From the NCBI GenBank assembly GCA_964645605.1, contig CAZYCE010000006.1, forward strand, positions 2,981 to 66,980: DNA of 64,000 nt. Reading direction: 5' to 3'. Source of the stretch: an uncultured Gammaproteobacteria bacterium. GTDB lineage: Bacteria > Patescibacteriota > Microgenomatia > UBA8517. The position numbers and the translations under genes were made by a program. The notes beneath the pieces were generated by a model. That model worked only from the letters and a program-made list of their open reading frames with translations. It searched no databases and was not told where the DNA came from. Shown one piece after another: positions 9,260 to 19,437 of this stretch; positions within the stretch are counted from its first letter, which is position 1, and every line of letters begins with the position of its first letter.

Positions 9260-9520
9260 ATGAAAGCATTTGTAAAAGATCTTAGTCATTATTTGGTCCT
9301 TTTTGGCATACTTCTTGCCGGATTCATCGGTCTCGTACTTTTTTCCTACGATAAAGCTTTTCAAACTGCAGTGGCTTCGGCACTTGTTATGGCCTACACT
9401 TCTTGGGGGATTTCTCATCATTATCTTCATGGAGATTTACACCTTGAGACGGTAATTGAGTATCTGGTTGTGGCTATCCTTGGTTTTGTAATAATATTTT
9501 CAATGATAATCCGGACGTGA
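9260..9520 (+). CDS. Hypothetical small membrane protein
   Basis: 86 aa, two or three hydrophobic helices. Confidence 0.35.
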   Translation: MKAFVKDLSHYLVLFGILLAGFIGLVLFSYDKAFQTAVASALVMAYTSWGISHHYLHGDLHLETVIEYLVVAILGFVIIFSMIIRT

Positions 9521-9558
9521 ATTTGACCCAAAAAACATGTTATACTTCTCTCACTGGT

Positions 9559-10449
9559 ATGAAAAAAGTTAGAAAGGCAGTTATCCCCGCCGCGGGTTTT
9601 GGTACCCGTTTTCTTCCCCAAACCAAGGCCATGCCTAAAGAAATGCTTCCCATTGTCGACAAGCCCGTTATCCAATATGTTGTTGAAGAACTGGTCGAGG
9701 CCGGAATTAAAGACATTATTATCGTCACCGGTTATCACAAACGTACGATTGAAGATCATTTCGATTTTCCCAATATGGATCTTATTGAAAATTTGAAAAT
9801 GGGCGGGGAAAAGAAAAAGCCTCTTCTGGAGGAGGTCGAAAAAATTGCCAATATGGCCAATTTTGTTTATGTCAGGCAAAAGGGTCCGTATGGGAACGGG
9901 ACGCCTCTGATGAATGTCAGACACCTGGTCGGTGATGAACCGTTTATCTACGCCTGGAGTGATGATTTTATTCAGGCTACCCCCTCGAGGTTTAAGCAGC
10001 TTATTGATGTTTACGAAAAATACGGAGGAAGCGTTTTGGGGGGAATGAAAGCTACGAAAGACGAGGATTATGACCGGTACGGTTTTGCGGGAGGAACTGA
10101 GGTTGAAGACGGCCTTATCAAAGCGGATGTTATTATCGAAAAACCCGGTAAGGAAAATGCCCCTTCTGACCTGGCAACGGTATCGGGATTTCTTTTTACG
10201 CCAGATATTTTCGGATACCTTCAGGAAGCCTGCAACAATCTAAAAGACGGGGATGAACTTTACTATAACGATGCCTTAAAGCTGATGCTTAAAGACGGAA
10301 AAGATGTTTATGCAGCTGAAATAAAAAACGGTAAATATTACGATACAGGCAACAAACTTGAATATCTTAAAACCGTTGTTGAATTTGCTCTCAAGCACCC
10401 GGATTTAAACGGAAAATTCAGAGAATATCTTAAATCCCTTGATCTTTAA
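9559..10449 (+). CDS. galU: UTP--glucose-1-phosphate uridylyltransferase
   Basis: MKKVRKAVIPAAGFGTRFLPQTKAMPKEMLPIVDKPVIQYVVEE is the canonical GalU N-terminus; internal ATG 9559 chosen over 9517. Confidence 0.85.
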   Translation: MKKVRKAVIPAAGFGTRFLPQTKAMPKEMLPIVDKPVIQYVVEELVEAGIKDIIIVTGYHKRTIEDHFDFPNMDLIENLKMGGEKKKPLLEEVEKIANMANFVYVRQKGPYGNGTPLMNVRHLVGDEPFIYAWSDDFIQATPSRFKQLIDVYEKYGGSVLGGMKATKDEDYDRYGFAGGTEVEDGLIKADVIIEKPGKENAPSDLATVSGFLFTPDIFGYLQEACNNLKDGDELYYNDALKLMLKDGKDVYAAEIKNGKYYDTGNKLEYLKTVVEFALKHPDLNGKFREYLKSLDL

Positions 10450-10451
10450 TC

Positions 10452-12374
10452 ATGAAGCTACTTGTTACAGGTGCTGCGGGTTTCATTGGCTCTAACTTTG
10501 TTTACTACTGGCTGGGAAAATATCCCAACGACGAGATAAGAGTAATCGACTCCCTAACTTACGCGGGAAATTTGGAAAATCTTACCCCAATAATTAAAAA
10601 AATTAAGTTTTTTGAGGCGGATATTAATGACCGTCCAAAAGTAAGGGAAGCCATGCGGGGGGTTGACGCAGTTGTTCATTATGCAGCAGAGAGCCATGTG
10701 GATAGAAGTATTTTTGACCCCAGCCGTTATTGGGAGACAAACGTTCATGGCACCCTGACGCTTCTTGAGGAGGCTCAGAAGCTGGGGATTGAAAGATTCC
10801 ACCATATTTCTACGGATGAAGTCTATGGAGAGCTCCCTTTGGACTCAAAGGATAAGTTCAGTGAAAAAACTCCCTATGCACCCCGCCCGGACAATCTTTA
10901 CGCTCTTTCCAAAGCCGAAGCCGATAATGTTGTTAAAGATTTTTATAAAAAGACCGGAATGTTTATAACGATATCCAACTGTTCAAATAATTATGGCCCT
11001 TTTCAATTTCCGGAAAAATTTATTCCGATTGTAATTACAAATCTGATCGACGGAATAAAAGTGCCTATTCATGGTGACGGAAAAAATGTGAGGGATTGGA
11101 TCCACACACGTGACCATGCCTCGGCAGTTGATTTAATTTTACAAAAAGGAAAAAAAGGAGAAACTTATTTAGTAGGTTCAAGTAACGACAGAGACAATGA
11201 TTATATAGCCAAAAAGATAGTTAGCCTTTACGGAAAAGATGAAAGCGTTATAAGGTATGTGCCGGATCGTCACAGTAACGATAGACGCTACGCCATTGAT
11301 GCCACAAAAATTATTAAAGAGCTTGGTTGGAAACCGCAAATCGGCAGGGATAATTTTGACGAGGGTTTAAAAGAGACAATAAAGTGGTACAAGGAGAATC
11401 AAGGTTGGTGGAGGCCGCTTCTCAAAAGACGAGCTTCAATTACCGATGATGAAAAGACAATAAGTGCATTTATTTCACTTGATCGCGAGACCGGAAAAAC
11501 AAAGTTTGTTTTTGGAAAACTTGAGGAGCAAACGAGGACGACGCTGCCTAAAAGCAATCTAAGCAAACATTTCATCGAGCAAAATTCAGTCCGCTATGAA
11601 ATTGTCATGAGAAATCTCAAATCCAAGAAATGGTACCGGAAAAGCCCGCATAAAATTAAAAGGGAAATAGAAACTCTTGCCGTAAATCCCGGCACATTCG
11701 GCTATGTGGAGGATCTGTCTCTGAGGGACGACAAGGTGAATGGTGACACGCTTCTGAAACTCGCAAAAATTGAACACGGTGAACCCAGGTATGGTATTTA
11801 CGGTATAGCGTCCTGGTTTGAGGTTGAAAATGAAAAAGGTGAAAAAAGAATGGAAGGTTACTATTCTTGGGGATGGGGACCTAAATCAGGTGCTAAACTT
11901 TTGGTTTTGCTAAAAAGACACGGAGAAATTACCCACATTGCTTTTCAAAAAGAAGTAAGGTTTCCGATGGGGTCAGAAGCTTACAACCTTGCCGGAGGAT
12001 TTCCTAAACTGAATGAAAGCGTGCTCAACTTTATAGTAAGGTCTCTGAAAAAAGATCTGAATTTAGACAGTAAAGACGGAGATTTTACACTGAGTGAAAT
12101 AGTAAGTTTGGGTAGGGTTGTTCCCGATTCAGGCATGACGAATAATCACCCGAATCTATATGCCGTTATTTTGGAAACGGATGATAAAAAGTTTTTAAAA
12201 GCCACTCCCGGCAAGAAATTTGAGAACCATGATATTGTCCTTTGGCCGATTAGCGAAATTTCTGAGGTGGTCAATAAGTGTGACGACTCATATTTTCTTT
12301 CGGCAATGGCCAGACTGACCCTTTCGGGAATTTATACAATGAATCTTTCGGAGAACAACAAGAAGAATGACTGA
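10452..12374 (+). CDS. rfbB: dTDP-glucose 4,6-dehydratase (RmlB) fused to an uncharacterised ~300-aa C-terminal domain
   Basis: First ~330 aa: GAAGFIGSNF, YALSKAEAD (YxxxK), HISTDEVYG. Residues ~330-640 (11442-12374) have no dehydratase similarity and carry a degenerate Nudix-like box GX5EX7R (11994-12059). Confidence 0.8.
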   Translation: MKLLVTGAAGFIGSNFVYYWLGKYPNDEIRVIDSLTYAGNLENLTPIIKKIKFFEADINDRPKVREAMRGVDAVVHYAAESHVDRSIFDPSRYWETNVHGTLTLLEEAQKLGIERFHHISTDEVYGELPLDSKDKFSEKTPYAPRPDNLYALSKAEADNVVKDFYKKTGMFITISNCSNNYGPFQFPEKFIPIVITNLIDGIKVPIHGDGKNVRDWIHTRDHASAVDLILQKGKKGETYLVGSSNDRDNDYIAKKIVSLYGKDESVIRYVPDRHSNDRRYAIDATKIIKELGWKPQIGRDNFDEGLKETIKWYKENQGWWRPLLKRRASITDDEKTISAFISLDRETGKTKFVFGKLEEQTRTTLPKSNLSKHFIEQNSVRYEIVMRNLKSKKWYRKSPHKIKREIETLAVNPGTFGYVEDLSLRDDKVNGDTLLKLAKIEHGEPRYGIYGIASWFEVENEKGEKRMEGYYSWGWGPKSGAKLLVLLKRHGEITHIAFQKEVRFPMGSEAYNLAGGFPKLNESVLNFIVRSLKKDLNLDSKDGDFTLSEIVSLGRVVPDSGMTNNHPNLYAVILETDDKKFLKATPGKKFENHDIVLWPISEISEVVNKCDDSYFLSAMARLTLSGIYTMNLSENNKKND

Positions 12375-12936
12375 TCAATCAAACATAATTAAAACTTCAA
12401 TTTCGGGGGTTGTTTTAATCCAAAGACCCGTTCATGGAGATGCACGGGGTTTCGTCCACGAGCCGTACAATAAACAGGAATTACAGGAGGCAACCGGAGT
12501 GGAATTTAATCCTGTCCAGTGGACCCACGCCTATATAAAACCCGGGGTAATCAAGGCTATACACACTGAAAATTGGAACAAACTTATTTATCCGGTCACG
12601 GGGGTTTTATATGCGCCGATTGCAGACTTAAGACCCGAATCGCCGACTTTTGGTAAGGTTGAATATATCACAATTGATAATACCAAGCCCGATTCTCCCC
12701 GACAGGCAATATTCTTACCCAAGGGAGGCATCGGAAATTCGGTATGTGTTCTGGGAACCGAGATGATGCACTATTTTTACCTTATCGATGAATATTGGGA
12801 TGACTCAAAGGCTAAGGGCGTTGCCTGGAATGATCCGGATTTGGGTATAAAATGGCCGATTGAAAATCCTGTTCTTTCTGAGCGCGATCAACATAACCCT
12901 ACATTGAGAGAAGTTTTCCCCGAAAAATTTAAATGA
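12367..12936 (+). CDS. rfbC: dTDP-4-dehydrorhamnose 3,5-epimerase
   Basis: Cupin-fold RmlC motifs: HGDARGF, AWNDPDLGIKWP. Confidence 0.85.
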   Translation: MTDQSNIIKTSISGVVLIQRPVHGDARGFVHEPYNKQELQEATGVEFNPVQWTHAYIKPGVIKAIHTENWNKLIYPVTGVLYAPIADLRPESPTFGKVEYITIDNTKPDSPRQAIFLPKGGIGNSVCVLGTEMMHYFYLIDEYWDDSKAKGVAWNDPDLGIKWPIENPVLSERDQHNPTLREVFPEKFK

Positions 12937-12952
12937 CATTCAATTCCAAATT

Positions 12953-13849
12953 ATGAAAAAAGTACTCGTTATCGGCGGAAGCGGCATGGTTGCCTCAAGA
13001 GTCATTGATCTGTGGAAAGAAAAATTTGAGGTAATCTCGCCGGATGAAAAAACTCTTGATATAACAAGCAAGGAGGCGGTCAGGAATTATTTTGAGTCTA
13101 ATTTTTATGATGCGGCGATAAATTTTGCGGCATTCACAAATGTTGATGCCGCCGAGGCCCAAAAGAGGGATGAAAAGGGACTTGTTTGGAAACTTAACGT
13201 CCTGGGTCCAAGATATTTGGCAGAGGAGTGTAAAAAGAAAAATATTTTCTTGATTCATATATCAACGGATTTTGTTTTCCCCGGAAATGAAACAAACCCC
13301 GGGCCATATTCCGAGGATTCGTTATTACCTGAAAAAGCCGACGGAATAGGCTGGTATGGATGGAGTAAAAACATGGCAGAAAAAGAGGTATCCTCGTCAG
13401 GCTGTAAAAACGCAATTGTTAGGTACGGATATCCGTTTAGGGCGGATAAATTTGATCTTAAGCTTGATTGGGCTAGAAATTTGCTCAAATTATATAACGA
13501 ACAAAAATTATATCCGCTCTTTACCGACCAAGTTCAAAGTGTGGTTTTTATTGACGATTTAGCTCTTCCTCTAGCCAGGATTATTACGGGTGAAATAGAA
13601 GGTGTTTTCCATATTGCGTCCAAAGACACGACCTCTCCATATGAAATAGGAGCTTATCTCCTGGAAAAATATGCCGGCAAAACCGTTGAAATTCAAAAGG
13701 GGTCAATGGCAGAGTTTTTGGCGGTACCCGGAAGGACCCCAAGGCCACGTTTGGGGGGACTGAGTGTTGAAAAAACCGAAAAACGGTTGGGGATGAATTT
13801 CAAAACCTGGAAAGAAATGGTAGATGAGTTTATTTCTCAGCTTAAGTAA
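12953..13849 (+). CDS. rfbD: dTDP-4-dehydrorhamnose reductase
   Basis: MKKVLVIGGSGMVAS Rossmann fold, LDITSKEAV and AAFTNVDAAE regions typical of RmlD; operon position after rmlB and rmlC. Confidence 0.75.
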   Translation: MKKVLVIGGSGMVASRVIDLWKEKFEVISPDEKTLDITSKEAVRNYFESNFYDAAINFAAFTNVDAAEAQKRDEKGLVWKLNVLGPRYLAEECKKKNIFLIHISTDFVFPGNETNPGPYSEDSLLPEKADGIGWYGWSKNMAEKEVSSSGCKNAIVRYGYPFRADKFDLKLDWARNLLKLYNEQKLYPLFTDQVQSVVFIDDLALPLARIITGEIEGVFHIASKDTTSPYEIGAYLLEKYAGKTVEIQKGSMAEFLAVPGRTPRPRLGGLSVEKTEKRLGMNFKTWKEMVDEFISQLK

Positions 13850-17173: not shown

Positions 17174-17884
17174 GTGGACACTCTTATCAAAGAATTATCC
17201 GTTTTTCTGCCTACATACAACGAGGAAGGTAACATAGCAGGAGTAATTGAAAATGTCGTCAAGGCTGCTTCTCAAAATGCCGAAAAATGGGAATTAATAG
17301 TGGTAGATGACGGTTCTATCGATTCAACGGCAGAAATTGTTTCAAAATTTGTAGAGTCAGACAGCCGCATTAAAATAATTAAGCACAAGAAAAATTCCGG
17401 TTATGGAGCGTCTCTCAAAACAGGGTTATACAATTCGAAATATAATTGGATTTCATTTATAGATTCCGACGGCCAGTTTGATTTCGGCGAAATAAATAAA
17501 TTTATTCAAAAGCAAAAGGAAACGGGAGCGGATATCGTCATTGGTTACTACAAAAAAAGAAAGGCGTCATCCTTAAAAATAATCACCAGTAAAATTTGGG
17601 AAGCCCTGGTGTTCATCCTTTTCGGTCTTAAAGTACGGGATATTGATTGTGGATTTAAACTTATTTCCAAAAGGGTGATTGAAAAAATTCCCAAACTGGA
17701 AAGTGAAAGAGGGGCGTTTATCAGCAGTGAACTATTGGTTAAGGCAAAAAAGAACGGATTCAAAATAGTGGAGATTCCCGTTACTCATTACCCGCGGTTA
17801 AAAGGAGAAGGGACGGGAAGAAAATTAAATGTGATTGTCGAAAGCTTCATAGATCTTTTCAGGCTGTGGAAAAAATTGCGATGA
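17174..17884 (+). CDS. GT2 polyprenyl-phosphate glycosyltransferase (DPM1/GtrB-like)
   Basis: LSVFLPTYNEEGNI, VVDDGSIDST, FIDSDGQFD. Confidence 0.8.
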   Translation: MDTLIKELSVFLPTYNEEGNIAGVIENVVKAASQNAEKWELIVVDDGSIDSTAEIVSKFVESDSRIKIIKHKKNSGYGASLKTGLYNSKYNWISFIDSDGQFDFGEINKFIQKQKETGADIVIGYYKKRKASSLKIITSKIWEALVFILFGLKVRDIDCGFKLISKRVIEKIPKLESERGAFISSELLVKAKKNGFKIVEIPVTHYPRLKGEGTGRKLNVIVESFIDLFRLWKKLR

Positions 17885-19437
17885 GGATTAGAAATTTTAT
17901 ATTTGGCATCAAAAATTGGATCAAAAAAAACCCTGTTGAATTTTGGATGCTTTTAGCGATCTTAATAATCGGGGCATTTTGCCGTCTTTACAAAATTGAC
18001 CAATACATGACTTTTTTAGGAGATGAGGGCCGTGACGTGATTATCGTCCGAAGAATTTTTACTGAGGCCCATCCGCCCTTAATAGGTCCGGGGACATCGG
18101 TTGGGAGTATGTATTTAGGTCCCCTTTATTACTACATGATGGCAATTCCGCTTTTATTAGCCGGTTTTTCGCCCGTGGGGCCGGCCGTGATGGTTGCTCT
18201 TTTGGGGGTTGCTACAATTGGTTTTGTCTGGTGGGTGGGTAGGATTTGGTTTTCCAAAACCGCCGGTCTGATTGCGGCGGGACTTTATGCGATTTCTCCG
18301 ACCGTTATAACTTTTTCCCGCTCTTCATGGAACCCGGACGTAATGCCTTTTTTTGCACTTTTGTTAACTTATTCTATATGGAAAGTTTGGAGGAAAGGCG
18401 AATTTAATTGGTTAATTGTTATGGGGATTTCTTTTGCCTTTGTGCTCCAATCACACTACTTGGGGCTTCTTTTGGCCCCAACGCTTTTTATATTTTGGTT
18501 TTTAACATGGAGAAATCTTAAATCGATTGGAAACTCAAAATCAAAAATTAGAAATTTCATTAAAAAATCACTCTTGGGTTTAGGATTTTTCCTACTGTTA
18601 ATGAGCCCTCTCCTAATTTTTGATTTAAGGCACGACTTTTTAAACTCAAAAGCTATTTATCAATTTATTGTTAACCGTGATGTGGCCCTTTCCGGAAGCC
18701 TTTTTGTGGCATTTTCCAAAATTCCCAAAGTATTTAATTTAATAAATTCAAGTTTACTTGCAGGAAAAAATACCCTGGCGGCGGTTGCCTCTTCAGTCTT
18801 TATCGTTTCCGGGGTGGTTTACGTTTTTGCCGAAAGTTTTGTCAAAAAGAAAAATTTTAAAATTAAGCCGGAGTATTGGCTTCTTTTTTCCTGGCTTTTC
18901 TTTGGTCTGATTGGCCTTAGTCTTTATAAAATGGAAATCTATGACCATTATTTTGGTTTCCTTTTCCCTGTGCCCTTTATTATTTTCGGATCGTTTATGG
19001 CTAAATTAATTGAAGACGGAAAAATTGCTAAGGTATTGGGTACGGCGGCGATACTTTATTTGGTAGTTATGGGCCTGATTCAGAATCCATTCAGATATGC
19101 TCCAAACCGCCAGCTGCAAAGGTCGCAAGATGTGGCTAAAAAAATATTAAGCCTATCCGCTGACAATTCTTTTAATTTGGCCGTTATTGCCGAAAGGAAC
19201 TACGAAGACGGTTATCGATATTTTCTTGAACTTTGGGGAGGAAAGGTTCTTCATGCCGATAGGTGGGATCCCGCAACCATTTCTGACCAACTTTTTGTTG
19301 TTTGCGAAAATGAACCTTCAAAATGTGATCCGACACACTCCCCGAAAGCGGAAGTTGCAAACTTCGGCATGAGTAAAATTGACGGGCAATGGGAGGTGGA
19401 TGGGGTTATAATATATAAACTTGCTCACGCACAATGA
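17866..19437 (+). CDS. GT-C-fold membrane glycosyltransferase (ArnT/PMT-like), subfamily B
   Basis: First extracytoplasmic loop FLGDEGRDVIIVRRIF...LIGPGTSVGSMYLGPLYYY; about 11 TM; overlaps upstream GT2 by 19 bp. Confidence 0.65.
   Translation: MEKIAMRIRNFIFGIKNWIKKNPVEFWMLLAILIIGAFCRLYKIDQYMTFLGDEGRDVIIVRRIFTEAHPPLIGPGTSVGSMYLGPLYYYMMAIPLLLAGFSPVGPAVMVALLGVATIGFVWWVGRIWFSKTAGLIAAGLYAISPTVITFSRSSWNPDVMPFFALLLTYSIWKVWRKGEFNWLIVMGISFAFVLQSHYLGLLLAPTLFIFWFLTWRNLKSIGNSKSKIRNFIKKSLLGLGFFLLLMSPLLIFDLRHDFLNSKAIYQFIVNRDVALSGSLFVAFSKIPKVFNLINSSLLAGKNTLAAVASSVFIVSGVVYVFAESFVKKKNFKIKPEYWLLFSWLFFGLIGLSLYKMEIYDHYFGFLFPVPFIIFGSFMAKLIEDGKIAKVLGTAAILYLVVMGLIQNPFRYAPNRQLQRSQDVAKKILSLSADNSFNLAVIAERNYEDGYRYFLELWGGKVLHADRWDPATISDQLFVVCENEPSKCDPTHSPKAEVANFGMSKIDGQWEVDGVIIYKLAHAQ

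What the first reader, a model, noticed from the sequence alone, without database searches (positions are those of the whole stretch)
10452..12374. RmlB dTDP-glucose 4,6-dehydratase fused to an unknown 300-aa domain with a degenerate Nudix-like box
Canonical RmlB ends near residue 330, but this ORF continues uninterrupted for another ~310 aa (11442-12374). It then overlaps rmlC in the usual operon order. The extension contains GGFPKLNESVLNFIVRSLKKDL (11994-12059), which fits the Nudix spacing GX5EX7R but replaces the REUXEE catalytic glutamates with S/K/D. That could indicate a Nudix-fold domain retained for dTDP-sugar binding or regulation rather than hydrolysis. A dehydratase fused to a nucleotide-sugar-binding module in front of rmlC/rmlD is not a standard architecture.
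Basis: partly seen in the sequence, partly recalled or inferred. Interest (0 to 1): 0.6.

Follow-up and report, generated by a model that had tools for sequence, protein, structure and literature searches.

The report
RmlB fused to a degenerate Nudix domain
A rhamnose-pathway enzyme (RmlB) in a group of tiny uncultured bacteria carries a conserved extra C-terminal domain that has the Nudix nucleotide-sugar-hydrolase fold but has lost most of its catalytic glutamates, so it most likely binds a pathway nucleotide-sugar without cutting it.

Summary
ORF 10452-12374 encodes 640 aa. Residues 2-323 are a complete dTDP-glucose 4,6-dehydratase (TIGR01181, above cut-off, catalytic motifs intact). The C-terminal ~310 aa match no Pfam or NCBIfam model.

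The extension is a real domain, not a lost stop codon. The same single ORF occurs in 13 Patescibacteria/Woesebacteria-type genomes and 44 metagenome contigs, with dN/dS of about 0.04-0.12.

An AlphaFold model (pLDDT 70) hits ADP-sugar/NDP-sugar Nudix hydrolases such as NUDT5, NudE and YffH (Foldseek E~1e-8). A profile of the wider family (158 clusters, mostly stand-alone ~260-aa proteins) hits NUDT5 by sequence (E=1.8e-9). Some stand-alone members carry canonical Nudix boxes and pass Pfam NUDIX.

In the window the box reads R-S-L-K-K-D-L-N where the family consensus is R-E-U-x-E-E-x-G. The structural half of the box and the other family motifs are retained.

Stand-alone relatives in three lineages also sit beside rml operons.

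Best reading: a catalytically impaired Nudix-fold module that binds a pathway nucleotide-sugar. The fold is shown; the function is inferred. It is a new variant of a known kind and moderately interesting.

The parts
10452..12374 (+). Whole fusion ORF, 640 aa plus stop: RmlB::Nudix-like
   Evidence: Single ORF. The same ORF occurs in 13 genomes and 44 metagenome loci. The exact protein is in public collections without a name.
10452..11426 (+). RmlB domain (residues 1-325), dTDP-glucose 4,6-dehydratase of the extended SDR type
   Evidence: TIGR01181 392 bits, above the 365 cut-off, covering residues 2-323. GxxGxxG (GAAGFIGS), S-TDE and YxxxK (YALSK) are intact here and in all fused orthologs.
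11427..11576 (+). Junction region (residues 326-375), predicted beta-strands. Specific to the fused clade and the least conserved part.
   Evidence: Strands are predicted but pLDDT is below 50. Mean entropy 1.48, 5 of 50 positions invariant, dN/dS about 0.05-0.12. The conserved core reads SAFIxLDRETGKTKF.
11577..11741 (+). Helical sub-domain (residues 376-430), shared with the stand-alone family members
   Evidence: Four to five helices with pLDDT 88-94 over roughly residues 381-420. It corresponds to profile positions ~55-110, which are matched by stand-alone proteins.
11742..12326 (+). Nudix-fold core (residues 431-625), ADP-sugar/NDP-sugar pyrophosphatase-like
   Evidence: Foldseek against the PDB: NUDT5, NudE, YffH and ADPRases at E 7e-9 to 1e-6, probability 1.00. 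Profile A3 hits NUDT5 at E=1.8e-9. 34 of 195 positions are invariant across 42 fusion proteins.
11994..12065 (+). Degenerate Nudix box, G515-L538: GGFPKLNESVLNFIVRSLKKDLNL
   Evidence: G515, G516, P518, E522 and R530 are invariant in the fused clade. Position 531 is S, K or Q and never E; 534 is K, E, D or R; 535 is D or E; 537 is N, G, D, K or E. The family majority at these four positions is E, E, E, G.
12123..12152 (+). Invariant family loop P558-D-S-G-M-T-N-N-H-P567
   Evidence: D559, G561, T563, N564, N565 and P567 are invariant in fused proteins, and the loop is conserved family-wide. It aligns to NUDT5 D133-P-G-L-S-N138.
9517..10449 (+). Upstream operon partner: a GalU-like sugar-1-phosphate nucleotidyltransferase in the position normally held by rmlA
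   Evidence: TIGR01099 galU 267 bits (below the 326.8 cut-off); rmlA models score only 42-95 bits. The window holds no true RmlA. The gene is syntenic in fused genomes.
12367..12936 (+). rmlC (dTDP-4-dehydrorhamnose 3,5-epimerase); overlaps the fusion ORF by 8 nt
   Evidence: TIGR01221 E=9e-32, 110 bits, below the 155.75 cut-off. Conserved downstream in the great majority of fused loci long enough to show it.
12953..13849 (+). rmlD (dTDP-4-dehydrorhamnose reductase)
   Evidence: TIGR01214 E=1.6e-41, 142 bits, below the 224 cut-off. Conserved synteny.

Best explanation
The gene encodes a genuine two-part protein. The N-terminal half is a complete, presumably active dTDP-glucose 4,6-dehydratase (RmlB). 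The C-terminal half (a junction, a small helical sub-domain and a Nudix-fold core) descends from a family of stand-alone ~260-aa Nudix proteins of the ADP-sugar/NDP-sugar pyrophosphatase type. That family occurs in Patescibacteria-type uncultured bacteria, often beside rhamnose-pathway genes.

After fusion to RmlB, the metal-binding glutamates of the Nudix box were lost. In this window REUxEE became R-S-L-K-K-D. The scaffold of the box and the other conserved pocket motifs stayed under purifying selection.

The most likely mechanism is that the domain no longer hydrolyses but still binds a nucleotide-sugar of the pathway: substrate, the 4-keto-6-deoxy intermediate, or the end product dTDP-L-rhamnose. 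It would then tune or assist the attached dehydratase. The options are feedback or feed-forward control, or holding the labile intermediate for RmlC.

Shown: the fusion, the fold, the residue losses, the selection and the gene context. Inferred: ligand binding, ligand identity and the effect on RmlB. My confidence is about 0.95 that it is a conserved Nudix-fold domain with a degenerate box, about 0.55 that it is a non-hydrolytic nucleotide-sugar binder, and about 0.3 that it acts specifically as a feedback sensor.
For: - Fusion is real. One ORF in 13 species-level genomes and in 44 of 52 fused-type metagenome loci; of the other 8, seven are cut by contig ends and one is fragmented. The two apparent splits are a ~29-nt near-duplication (L001) and a T10 homopolymer (L002).
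- RmlB is intact.
- Nudix fold. Foldseek top 50 are all Nudix hydrolases, chiefly of the ADP-sugar/NDP-sugar kind, led by NUDT5 at E=6.9e-9. Profile A1 against the PDB has four Nudix-fold proteins on top. The broader profile A3 hits NUDT5 at 1.8e-9, Bdellovibrio NDP-sugar hydrolase at 2e-7 and AraR at 5e-5. Family members P0074, P0083, P0085 and P0109 pass the Pfam NUDIX threshold and match the window-seeded profile at E 1e-26 to 5e-40.
- Loss of catalytic residues. Window S531, K534, D535, N537 against a family majority of E (97 of 132), E (83), E (86), G (95). Among 42 distinct fusion proteins position 531 is never acidic.
- Retention of the rest. G515, G516, P518, E522, R530, S472, W473, G476, G480, D559, G561, T563, N564, N565, D612 and R621 are invariant. 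dN/dS is 0.04-0.12 where dS can be estimated.
- Pathway link. Conserved order GalU-like, fusion, rmlC, rmlD. Stand-alone relatives lie next to rmlABCD or rmlBCD in three lineages.
- Precedents. Nudix domains with two or three glutamates substituted act as ligand sensors in NrtR and AraR (PMC4666351). Nudix-fold pockets bind dTDP-sugars in EvaA, including a non-catalytic pocket holding dTDP-L-rhamnose (PMC8987622).
Against: - No binding or activity data exist.
- One acidic residue (D or E at 535) is always kept. Subclade B of the fusions keeps two acidic residues and the Gly (R-K-L-E-[DE]-[DE]-L-G), so residual metal binding or hydrolysis is not excluded.
- The model has only moderate confidence (pLDDT 70.5, pTM 0.57), and the full-length model is uninformative about domain contacts.
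- The rml association is not shown for the whole family. The canonical-box member P0074 sits next to a GT2 glycosyltransferase with no rml genes visible.
- The nucleotide could be UDP rather than dTDP, since the operon's nucleotidyltransferase is GalU-like.
Confidence: 0.55

Rival explanations
1. The Nudix-like domain is still an active, if unusual, nucleotide-sugar pyrophosphatase. It would trim the dTDP-sugar pool or destroy off-pathway or stalled intermediates, as Nudix hydrolases encoded in other sugar-nucleotide clusters are thought to do.
For: An acidic residue at position 535, E522 and R530 are always kept, and E591 is conserved family-wide (90 of 132). Subclade B fusions retain E/D-E/D and the Gly. 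The closest folds are true hydrolases. Stand-alone relatives beside rml operons keep an E-x-x-E-E-x-G set, for example L018 RELKEEMGV.
Against: The REU glutamate is replaced in all 42 fusion proteins. In the window's subclade the next one is Lys or Arg, leaving a single Asp. [quoted passage not shown] A hydrolase tethered to the enzyme whose substrate or product it destroys would be a futile cycle.
Confidence: 0.2
2. The domain is a non-hydrolytic Nudix-fold enzyme acting on the RmlB product. It could be an EvaA-like 2,3-dehydratase or another sugar-modifying activity, using the invariant polar residues (D559, T563, N564, N565, H495, D612) instead of the Nudix-box metals.
For: EvaA-type 2,3-dehydratases belong to the Nudix superfamily and use dTDP-4-keto-6-deoxyglucose, the RmlB product (PMC8987622). 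Many polar residues outside the box are invariant.
Against: None of the 31 family members scanned hit any Pfam model other than NUDIX in the extension. No EvaA chain appeared among the 57 PDB sequence hits at E<=1 or the top 50 Foldseek hits. EvaA has two tandem Nudix-like domains, whereas this protein has one. The operon already encodes a complete route (nucleotidyltransferase, RmlB, RmlC, RmlD), and the rml genes identified in the loci reveal no 3-ketoreductase partner.
Confidence: 0.1
3. The domain has a purely structural role, such as oligomerisation or a docking platform for RmlC, RmlD or a glycosyltransferase, and binds no ligand.
For: ADP-ribose pyrophosphatase-type Nudix proteins and RmlB are both obligate dimers (established knowledge), so a fusion could build higher-order assemblies. 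The fusion gene overlaps rmlC.
Against: The invariant residues cluster in motifs that correspond to the ligand cleft of NUDT5-like enzymes, namely the box scaffold and the D-x-G-M-T-N loop. The same motifs are conserved in stand-alone family members that have no RmlB attached.
Confidence: 0.12
4. Artefact: two adjacent genes were joined by a sequencing or assembly error that removed a stop codon or shifted the frame.
For: In L001 and L002 the two parts are called as separate genes.
Against: Both splits are local lesions inside the RmlB tail: a near-duplicated 29-nt segment and a T10 run. The extension's frame stays open back into RmlB. The single ORF recurs in 57 independent assemblies, down to 43-50% identity in the extension.
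Confidence: 0.01

Closest known systems
ADP-sugar / NDP-sugar pyrophosphatases of the Nudix superfamily (human NUDT5, E. coli NudE, NudK/YffH GDP-mannose hydrolase, Bdellovibrio NDP-sugar hydrolase, bacterial ADPRases)
   Same: They are the best structural matches (Foldseek E 7e-9 to 1e-6) and the best sequence-profile matches (NUDT5 1.8e-9). They share the same core fold, the same position of the box, and the D-P-G-L-S-N loop, which is equivalent to the family's D-x-G-M-T-N.
   Different: The window's domain lacks two of the three box glutamates and the box glycine. It has an extra N-terminal helical sub-domain and is fused to RmlB. Identity is only 13-16%. The window sequence itself does not hit Pfam NUDIX.
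Non-catalytic Nudix-like ligand-sensor domains: NrtR and Bacteroides AraR regulators
   Same: The Nudix fold has an impaired signature (two or three glutamates substituted) and is used to bind a small sugar or ADP-ribose ligand and pass the signal to an attached domain (PMC4666351). AraR (5bs6) was the best PDB hit of the first profile (E=0.0012).
   Different: In NrtR and AraR the partner is a winged-helix DNA-binding domain. Here the partner is an enzyme, it sits N-terminal to the Nudix domain, and there is no wHTH: the protein ends about 15 residues after the Nudix core.
EvaA-type dTDP-sugar 2,3-dehydratases (Nudix superfamily)
   Same: They show that a Nudix fold can bind dTDP-hexoses made by RmlB. 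EvaA's second pocket is an inactive remnant that still binds dTDP-L-rhamnose (PMC8987622).
   Different: EvaA has two tandem Nudix-like domains and a dehydratase active site. No sequence or top-ranked fold similarity to EvaA was found here, and the gene context is the plain rhamnose pathway.
Canonical stand-alone RmlB (dTDP-glucose 4,6-dehydratase) and other rhamnose-pathway fusions (plant RHM, algal RmlC/D fusion)
   Same: The N-terminal 325 aa is an ordinary RmlB (TIGR01181 above cut-off). Fusions of pathway enzymes are known, for example RmlC/D (PMC6556577, listed).
   Different: Known fusions join two catalytic steps of the pathway. Here the added domain is not a pathway enzyme but a degenerate Nudix module.

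Membership tests
RmlB, dTDP-glucose 4,6-dehydratase (TIGR01181) | Full-length match to the equivalog model above its curated cut-off | tested here: met
   392.1 bits against a cut-off of 365.1, residues 2-323 matching profile positions 1-321.
RmlB, dTDP-glucose 4,6-dehydratase (TIGR01181) | NAD-binding GxxGxxG, the catalytic S/T-D-E and YxxxK motifs of extended SDR dehydratases | tested here: met
   GAAGFIGS, S-TDEVYGE and YALSK are present and conserved in all fused orthologs.
RmlB, dTDP-glucose 4,6-dehydratase (TIGR01181) | Dehydratase activity on dTDP-glucose (rather than UDP-glucose) | not testable with these tools
   The operon's nucleotidyltransferase is GalU-like, so the nucleotide specificity is uncertain.
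Nudix superfamily | Alpha/beta/alpha Nudix fold | tested here: met
   AF2 model with pLDDT 70.5. Foldseek against the PDB gave 121 hits at E<=1e-3, and the top 50 are all Nudix hydrolases, probability 1.00.
Nudix superfamily | Sequence homology to recognised Nudix proteins | tested here: met
   The window alone gives no Pfam hit. The family profile hits NUDT5 at 1.8e-9, MutT at 2e-3 and about 50 other Nudix chains. Family members pass the Pfam NUDIX threshold.
Nudix superfamily | Complete signature GX5EX7REUXEEXGU (the metal-binding glutamates) | tested here: not met
   G516-X5-E522-X7-R530 is present, but the rest reads S531-L-K-K534-D535-L-N537-L. E is replaced by S, E by K, E by D and G by N.
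ADP-sugar / NDP-sugar pyrophosphatase subgroup (NUDT5 / NudF / NudK-like) | Closest fold and profile similarity, including the D-P-G-x-S/T-N loop downstream of the box | tested here: met
   D559-S-G-M-T-N564 aligns with NUDT5 D133-P-G-L-S-N138.
ADP-sugar / NDP-sugar pyrophosphatase subgroup (NUDT5 / NudF / NudK-like) | Mg2+-dependent hydrolysis of an NDP-sugar | not testable with these tools
   Predicted to be lost or strongly impaired on the basis of the box substitutions. This is an inference only.
NrtR/AraR Nudix-related transcriptional regulators | Nudix-like effector domain followed by a C-terminal winged-helix DNA-binding domain | tested here: not met
   The protein ends at residue 640, about 15 residues after the last Nudix helix. 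There is no HTH model hit, and the partner domain is RmlB.
EvaA-type NDP-hexose 2,3-dehydratase | Two tandem Nudix-like domains and a match to the family's sequence model or structure | tested here: not met
   There is a single Nudix core. The only Pfam model hit in the extension of any family member scanned was NUDIX. EvaA is absent from the PDB profile hits at E<=1 and from the top 50 Foldseek hits. No direct superposition on 4J7G could be run.

The most novel reading that the evidence does not exclude
The degenerate Nudix domain is a built-in nucleotide-sugar sensor that allosterically controls RmlB, for example through feedback by dTDP-L-rhamnose. It would do this in lineages whose operon has a GalU-type nucleotidyltransferase in place of RmlA, the enzyme that normally carries the pathway's feedback site. 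That would be the first regulated RmlB and the first case of a pseudo-Nudix sensor wired directly to an enzyme rather than to a DNA-binding or channel domain.
Probability: 0.3. Interest if true: 0.6.

Novelty: new variant of a known kind. Interest (0 to 1): 0.45.

Why it matters
It defines an unannotated Nudix subfamily: about 158 clusters at 50% identity, most of them invisible to Pfam and named 'hypothetical protein'. The subfamily is linked to rhamnose biosynthesis in candidate-phyla bacteria.

It also provides a natural series running from canonical-box stand-alone proteins to progressively eroded boxes in fused proteins. That series illustrates how a hydrolase can become a ligand-binding pseudoenzyme.

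If the domain regulates RmlB, it would reveal a different control point for dTDP-rhamnose synthesis. This pathway is of interest as an antibacterial target and for cell-surface glycan biology in organisms with minimal genomes.

In practical terms, the roughly 640-aa 'dTDP-glucose 4,6-dehydratase' entries in databases deserve a second domain annotation.

Tried and rejected
- Single-sequence searches of the extension against Pfam, NCBIfam and PDB sequences gave nothing, or only spurious T4-lysozyme matches (E~1). Profiles were needed.
- The full-length AF2 model, built from a 22-sequence alignment, was poor (pLDDT 60, pTM 0.42, junction below 50). It gives no information on how the domains pack.
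- dN/dS: dS is saturated for most pairs, so only a few ratios are usable.
- Context of the canonical-box member P0074: short contigs with only a GT2 neighbour, so it is inconclusive for a family-wide rml link.
- 'Two genes joined by error' was considered and rejected.
- Membership in the EvaA-like dehydratase and NrtR/AraR families was considered and rejected on architecture and the lack of hits.
- tRNA and Rfam scans of the window found nothing.
- Four literature searches found no prior description of an RmlB-Nudix fusion. The library is limited to open-access papers.
Full report
**1. Observation**

The window contains one uninterrupted ORF at 10452..12374 (+), 640 aa. Residues 2-323 match the dTDP-glucose 4,6-dehydratase equivalog TIGR01181 over its full length, at 392 bits against a cut-off of 365. 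Pfam places the SDR dehydratase domain at residues 4-308. The remaining ~315 residues hit no Pfam or NCBIfam model even at E<=10. A single-sequence search of PDB sequences returned only noise.

The motif GGFPKLNESVLNFIVRSLKKDL lies exactly at 11994-12059. The ORF's stop overlaps the rmlC start by 8 nt. The loose pattern GX5EX7R alone occurs in 8% of shuffles of the extension, so the motif by itself was only a hint.

**2. The fusion is real and conserved**

The extension has few relatives: 19 proteins among 5.8 billion by the word-indexed search. A genome scan found 18 species-level genomes. Most records are labelled Patescibacteria or Woesebacteria; the rest carry generic or other names. In all 13 closer genomes (46-75% identity in the extension), RmlB and the extension form one ORF. 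Twelve of these are 630-652 aa, and one is a 998-aa variant that carries an insertion.

A metagenome scan added 65 loci. Among the 52 of the fused type, 44 show one continuous frame, 7 are cut by a contig end and 1 is fragmented.

Two relatives are called as separate genes, and both are explained by local lesions. L001 carries a near-duplicated ~29-nt segment inside the RmlB tail (GLKETVNW / GLEKTVEW) that shifts the frame. L002 breaks at a T10 run. In both, the extension's frame stays open back into RmlB.

Across 42 distinct full-length fusion proteins the extension is under purifying selection. dN is 0.11-0.35 with saturated dS. Where dS can be estimated, dN/dS is 0.04-0.12, against 0.02-0.05 for RmlB. 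The RmlB motifs GxxGxxG, S-TDE and YxxxK are intact throughout.

**3. What the extension is**

An AlphaFold2 model of residues 321-640 (16-sequence alignment) has pLDDT 70.5 and pTM 0.57. It shows a poorly defined beta-stranded junction, a confident small helical bundle (pLDDT up to 94), and an alpha/beta core.

Foldseek against the PDB gave 121 matches at E<=1e-3. The top 50 are all Nudix hydrolases, chiefly of the ADP-sugar/NDP-sugar kind: human NUDT5 (E=6.9e-9), E. coli NudE, GDP-mannose hydrolase YffH/NudK, the Klebsiella and Mycobacterium ADPRases, and the Bdellovibrio NDP-sugar hydrolase.

Sequence evidence is independent of the model. A profile of the close relatives already placed four Nudix-fold proteins on top of the PDB list, led by Bacteroides AraR at E=0.0012. 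An exhaustive profile search of 1.84 billion cluster representatives found 158 family members (87 at E<=1e-30). Most are stand-alone proteins of 250-290 aa that start at the helical sub-domain. A 93-sequence profile of this wider family hits NUDT5 at E=1.8e-9, the Bdellovibrio enzyme at 2e-7, AraR at 5e-5, Thermus ADPRase at 3e-4 and MutT at 2e-3. Of the 57 chains matched, all but one are Nudix-fold proteins.

Several stand-alone members have textbook boxes, for example P0074 GGFIEEGEDFNTAFIREVEEELGV. These pass Pfam's NUDIX gathering threshold. The extension is therefore a divergent member of the Nudix superfamily, closest to the ADP-sugar pyrophosphatase group.

**4. State of the catalytic box**

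Counts are from 132 family sequences of at least 200 aa.

| Box position | Family majority | Window |
|---|---|---|
| R of REU | R (69) | R530 |
| E of REU | E (97) | S531 |
| first E of EE | E (83) | K534 |
| second E of EE | E (86) | D535 |
| G of xGU | G (95) | N537 |

Within the 42 fusion proteins, G515, G516, P518, E522, S523, I528 and R530 are invariant. Position 531 is S, K or Q and never acidic. Position 534 is K, E, D or R, and position 535 is D or E.

There are two subclades. The window's subclade reads R-S-[LIF]-x-[KR..]-[DE]-L. A deeper one still reads R-K-L-E-[DE]-[DE]-L-G. The erosion is thus graded and follows the fusion.

The other family motifs are retained: S472-W473-x-x-G476-x-x-x-G480-x-K482, the loop D559-x-G-M-T-N-N, E591 and D612. 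The loop aligns with NUDT5 D133-P-G-L-S-N138.

[quoted passage not shown] NrtR and AraR, with two or three glutamates substituted, use the fold for ligand binding (PMC4666351).

**5. Context**

In fused genomes the order is GalE ... GalU-like, RmlB::Nudix-like, RmlC, RmlD, then TrmD on the opposite strand. The window holds no true RmlA. The upstream gene is GalU-like: TIGR01099 at 267 bits, with rmlA models scoring only 42-95 bits.

Stand-alone relatives (26-30% identical) lie divergently beside rmlA-B-C-D (L017, L074, L077), beside rmlB-C-D (L018, L079, L080), or between rmlD and rhamnosyltransferase-like genes (L016, L075, L076). That makes three distinct lineages. These stand-alone proteins keep an E-x-x-E-E-x-G set, for example RELKEEMGV in L018.

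A canonical-box member (P0074) sits next to a GT2 glycosyltransferase on a short contig, which is uninformative for rml. The link to the rhamnose pathway is therefore solid for the fused clade and its nearest stand-alone relatives, but it is not shown for the entire family.

**6. Mechanism**

Shown: a complete RmlB, a covalently attached Nudix-fold domain of the NDP-sugar type, loss of the metal-ligand glutamates with retention of the scaffold and pocket motifs, purifying selection, and rhamnose-pathway context.

Inferred: the domain binds, but does not hydrolyse, a nucleotide-sugar of the pathway and modulates or assists RmlB.

A specific version is feedback sensing of dTDP-L-rhamnose. It is attractive because RmlA, the classical feedback-inhibited step (my own knowledge of the RmlA literature, not tested here), is replaced in these operons by a GalU-type enzyme. 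Nudix-fold pockets binding dTDP-sugars, including an inactive remnant pocket holding dTDP-L-rhamnose, are documented for EvaA (PMC8987622).

Rivals:
- Residual hydrolase activity. One acidic residue is always kept, and subclade B keeps two.
- A non-hydrolytic catalytic role on the 4-keto intermediate, as in EvaA. There was no sequence or top-ranked fold similarity, there is a single domain, and the pathway is already complete.
- A purely structural role.
- An assembly artefact, which is excluded.

**7. Comparison and novelty**

The protein works most like the pseudo-Nudix ligand sensors NrtR and AraR, but it is not a member of that family because it has no wHTH domain. It belongs to the Nudix superfamily by fold and homology but fails the catalytic-signature criterion. 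Its N-terminal half is an ordinary RmlB.

Public records name the fusion 'hypothetical protein' or 'dTDP-glucose 4,6-dehydratase', and the stand-alone form 'hypothetical protein'. Four literature searches found no description of this fusion.

I rate it a new variant of a known kind, with moderate interest of 0.45. The architecture and the graded decay of the box are neat and testable, but pseudo-Nudix sensors and pathway-enzyme fusions are both established concepts, and the function remains inferred.

Noticed in passing
L014:3952-6930 (CAZIPM010000001.1); the insertion lies between RmlB residues ~121 and 122: The RmlB::Nudix-like ORF is 993-998 aa because about 360 aa are inserted in-frame exactly at the catalytic S|TDE motif. 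The insert starts with Cys, ends ...GN followed by Thr, and contains LAGLIDADG-like motifs. Pfam Intein_splicing, Hint_2 and LAGLIDADG_3 hit below their thresholds. It is probably an intein with a homing endonuclease in RmlB.
   Followed up: partly
window 9517-10449: The gene in the rmlA position is GalU-like (a UTP-glucose-1-phosphate uridylyltransferase type), and the 64-kb window holds no true RmlA. The pathway may start from a promiscuous GalU-type enzyme or may use UDP-sugars.
   Followed up: partly
window ~17866-19437 and ~28073-54768: A long run of ~500-580-aa ORFs with strong T-over-A skew. Several are PMT_2/PMT-type (GT-C) glycosyltransferases or PTPS_related membrane proteins, and one is a Polysacc_synt_3 flippase. 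It is a large paralog-rich surface-glycan locus next to the rhamnose operon.
   Followed up: partly
L001:5850-6000 and L002:1700-1760: Apparent gene splits in relatives are caused by a ~29-nt near-duplication (GLKETVNW/GLEKTVEW) and by a T10 homopolymer. They are probably assembly or sequencing artefacts in metagenome contigs.
   Followed up: yes
P0018, P0019 (369 aa): These are RmlB proteins that carry only the first ~45 residues of the extension (…SAYISLDRESGKTKFVFGKIEKPVKKDKVAFD) and then stop. Either they are a clade with the junction hairpin but no Nudix domain, or they are truncated genes.
   Followed up: no
P0021 (571 aa); L083:6707-8248: P0021 matches the family profile in two stretches, and its N-terminal 313 aa have no Pfam hit. 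L083 has two family genes in tandem. These may be duplications of the Nudix-like unit, reminiscent of the two-domain EvaA layout.
   Followed up: no
L018, L079, L080 (stand-alone relative beside rmlBCD): The open frame stops after ~183-186 aa (at ...YSPD) in all three contigs, while the tblastn similarity continues to the end of the domain. This could be a shared frameshift or pseudogene in that lineage.
   Followed up: no
L003, L008-L010, L014 (record titles): Several MAG records whose loci are syntenic and 46-75% identical (in the extension) to the Woesebacteria-labelled loci are titled 'uncultured Gammaproteobacteria bacterium'. These are probably taxonomic mislabels of the submissions.
   Followed up: no
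L035-L037, L039, L040, L042, L044, L061: In one subclade, 1.5-6 kb of extra DNA separates the fusion gene from rmlC-rmlD, which are otherwise adjacent. The content of the insertion was not examined.
   Followed up: no
window 1-64000: No tRNA or tmRNA gene and no Rfam family at gathering threshold in 64 kb. GC content is 37-44%.
   Followed up: yes
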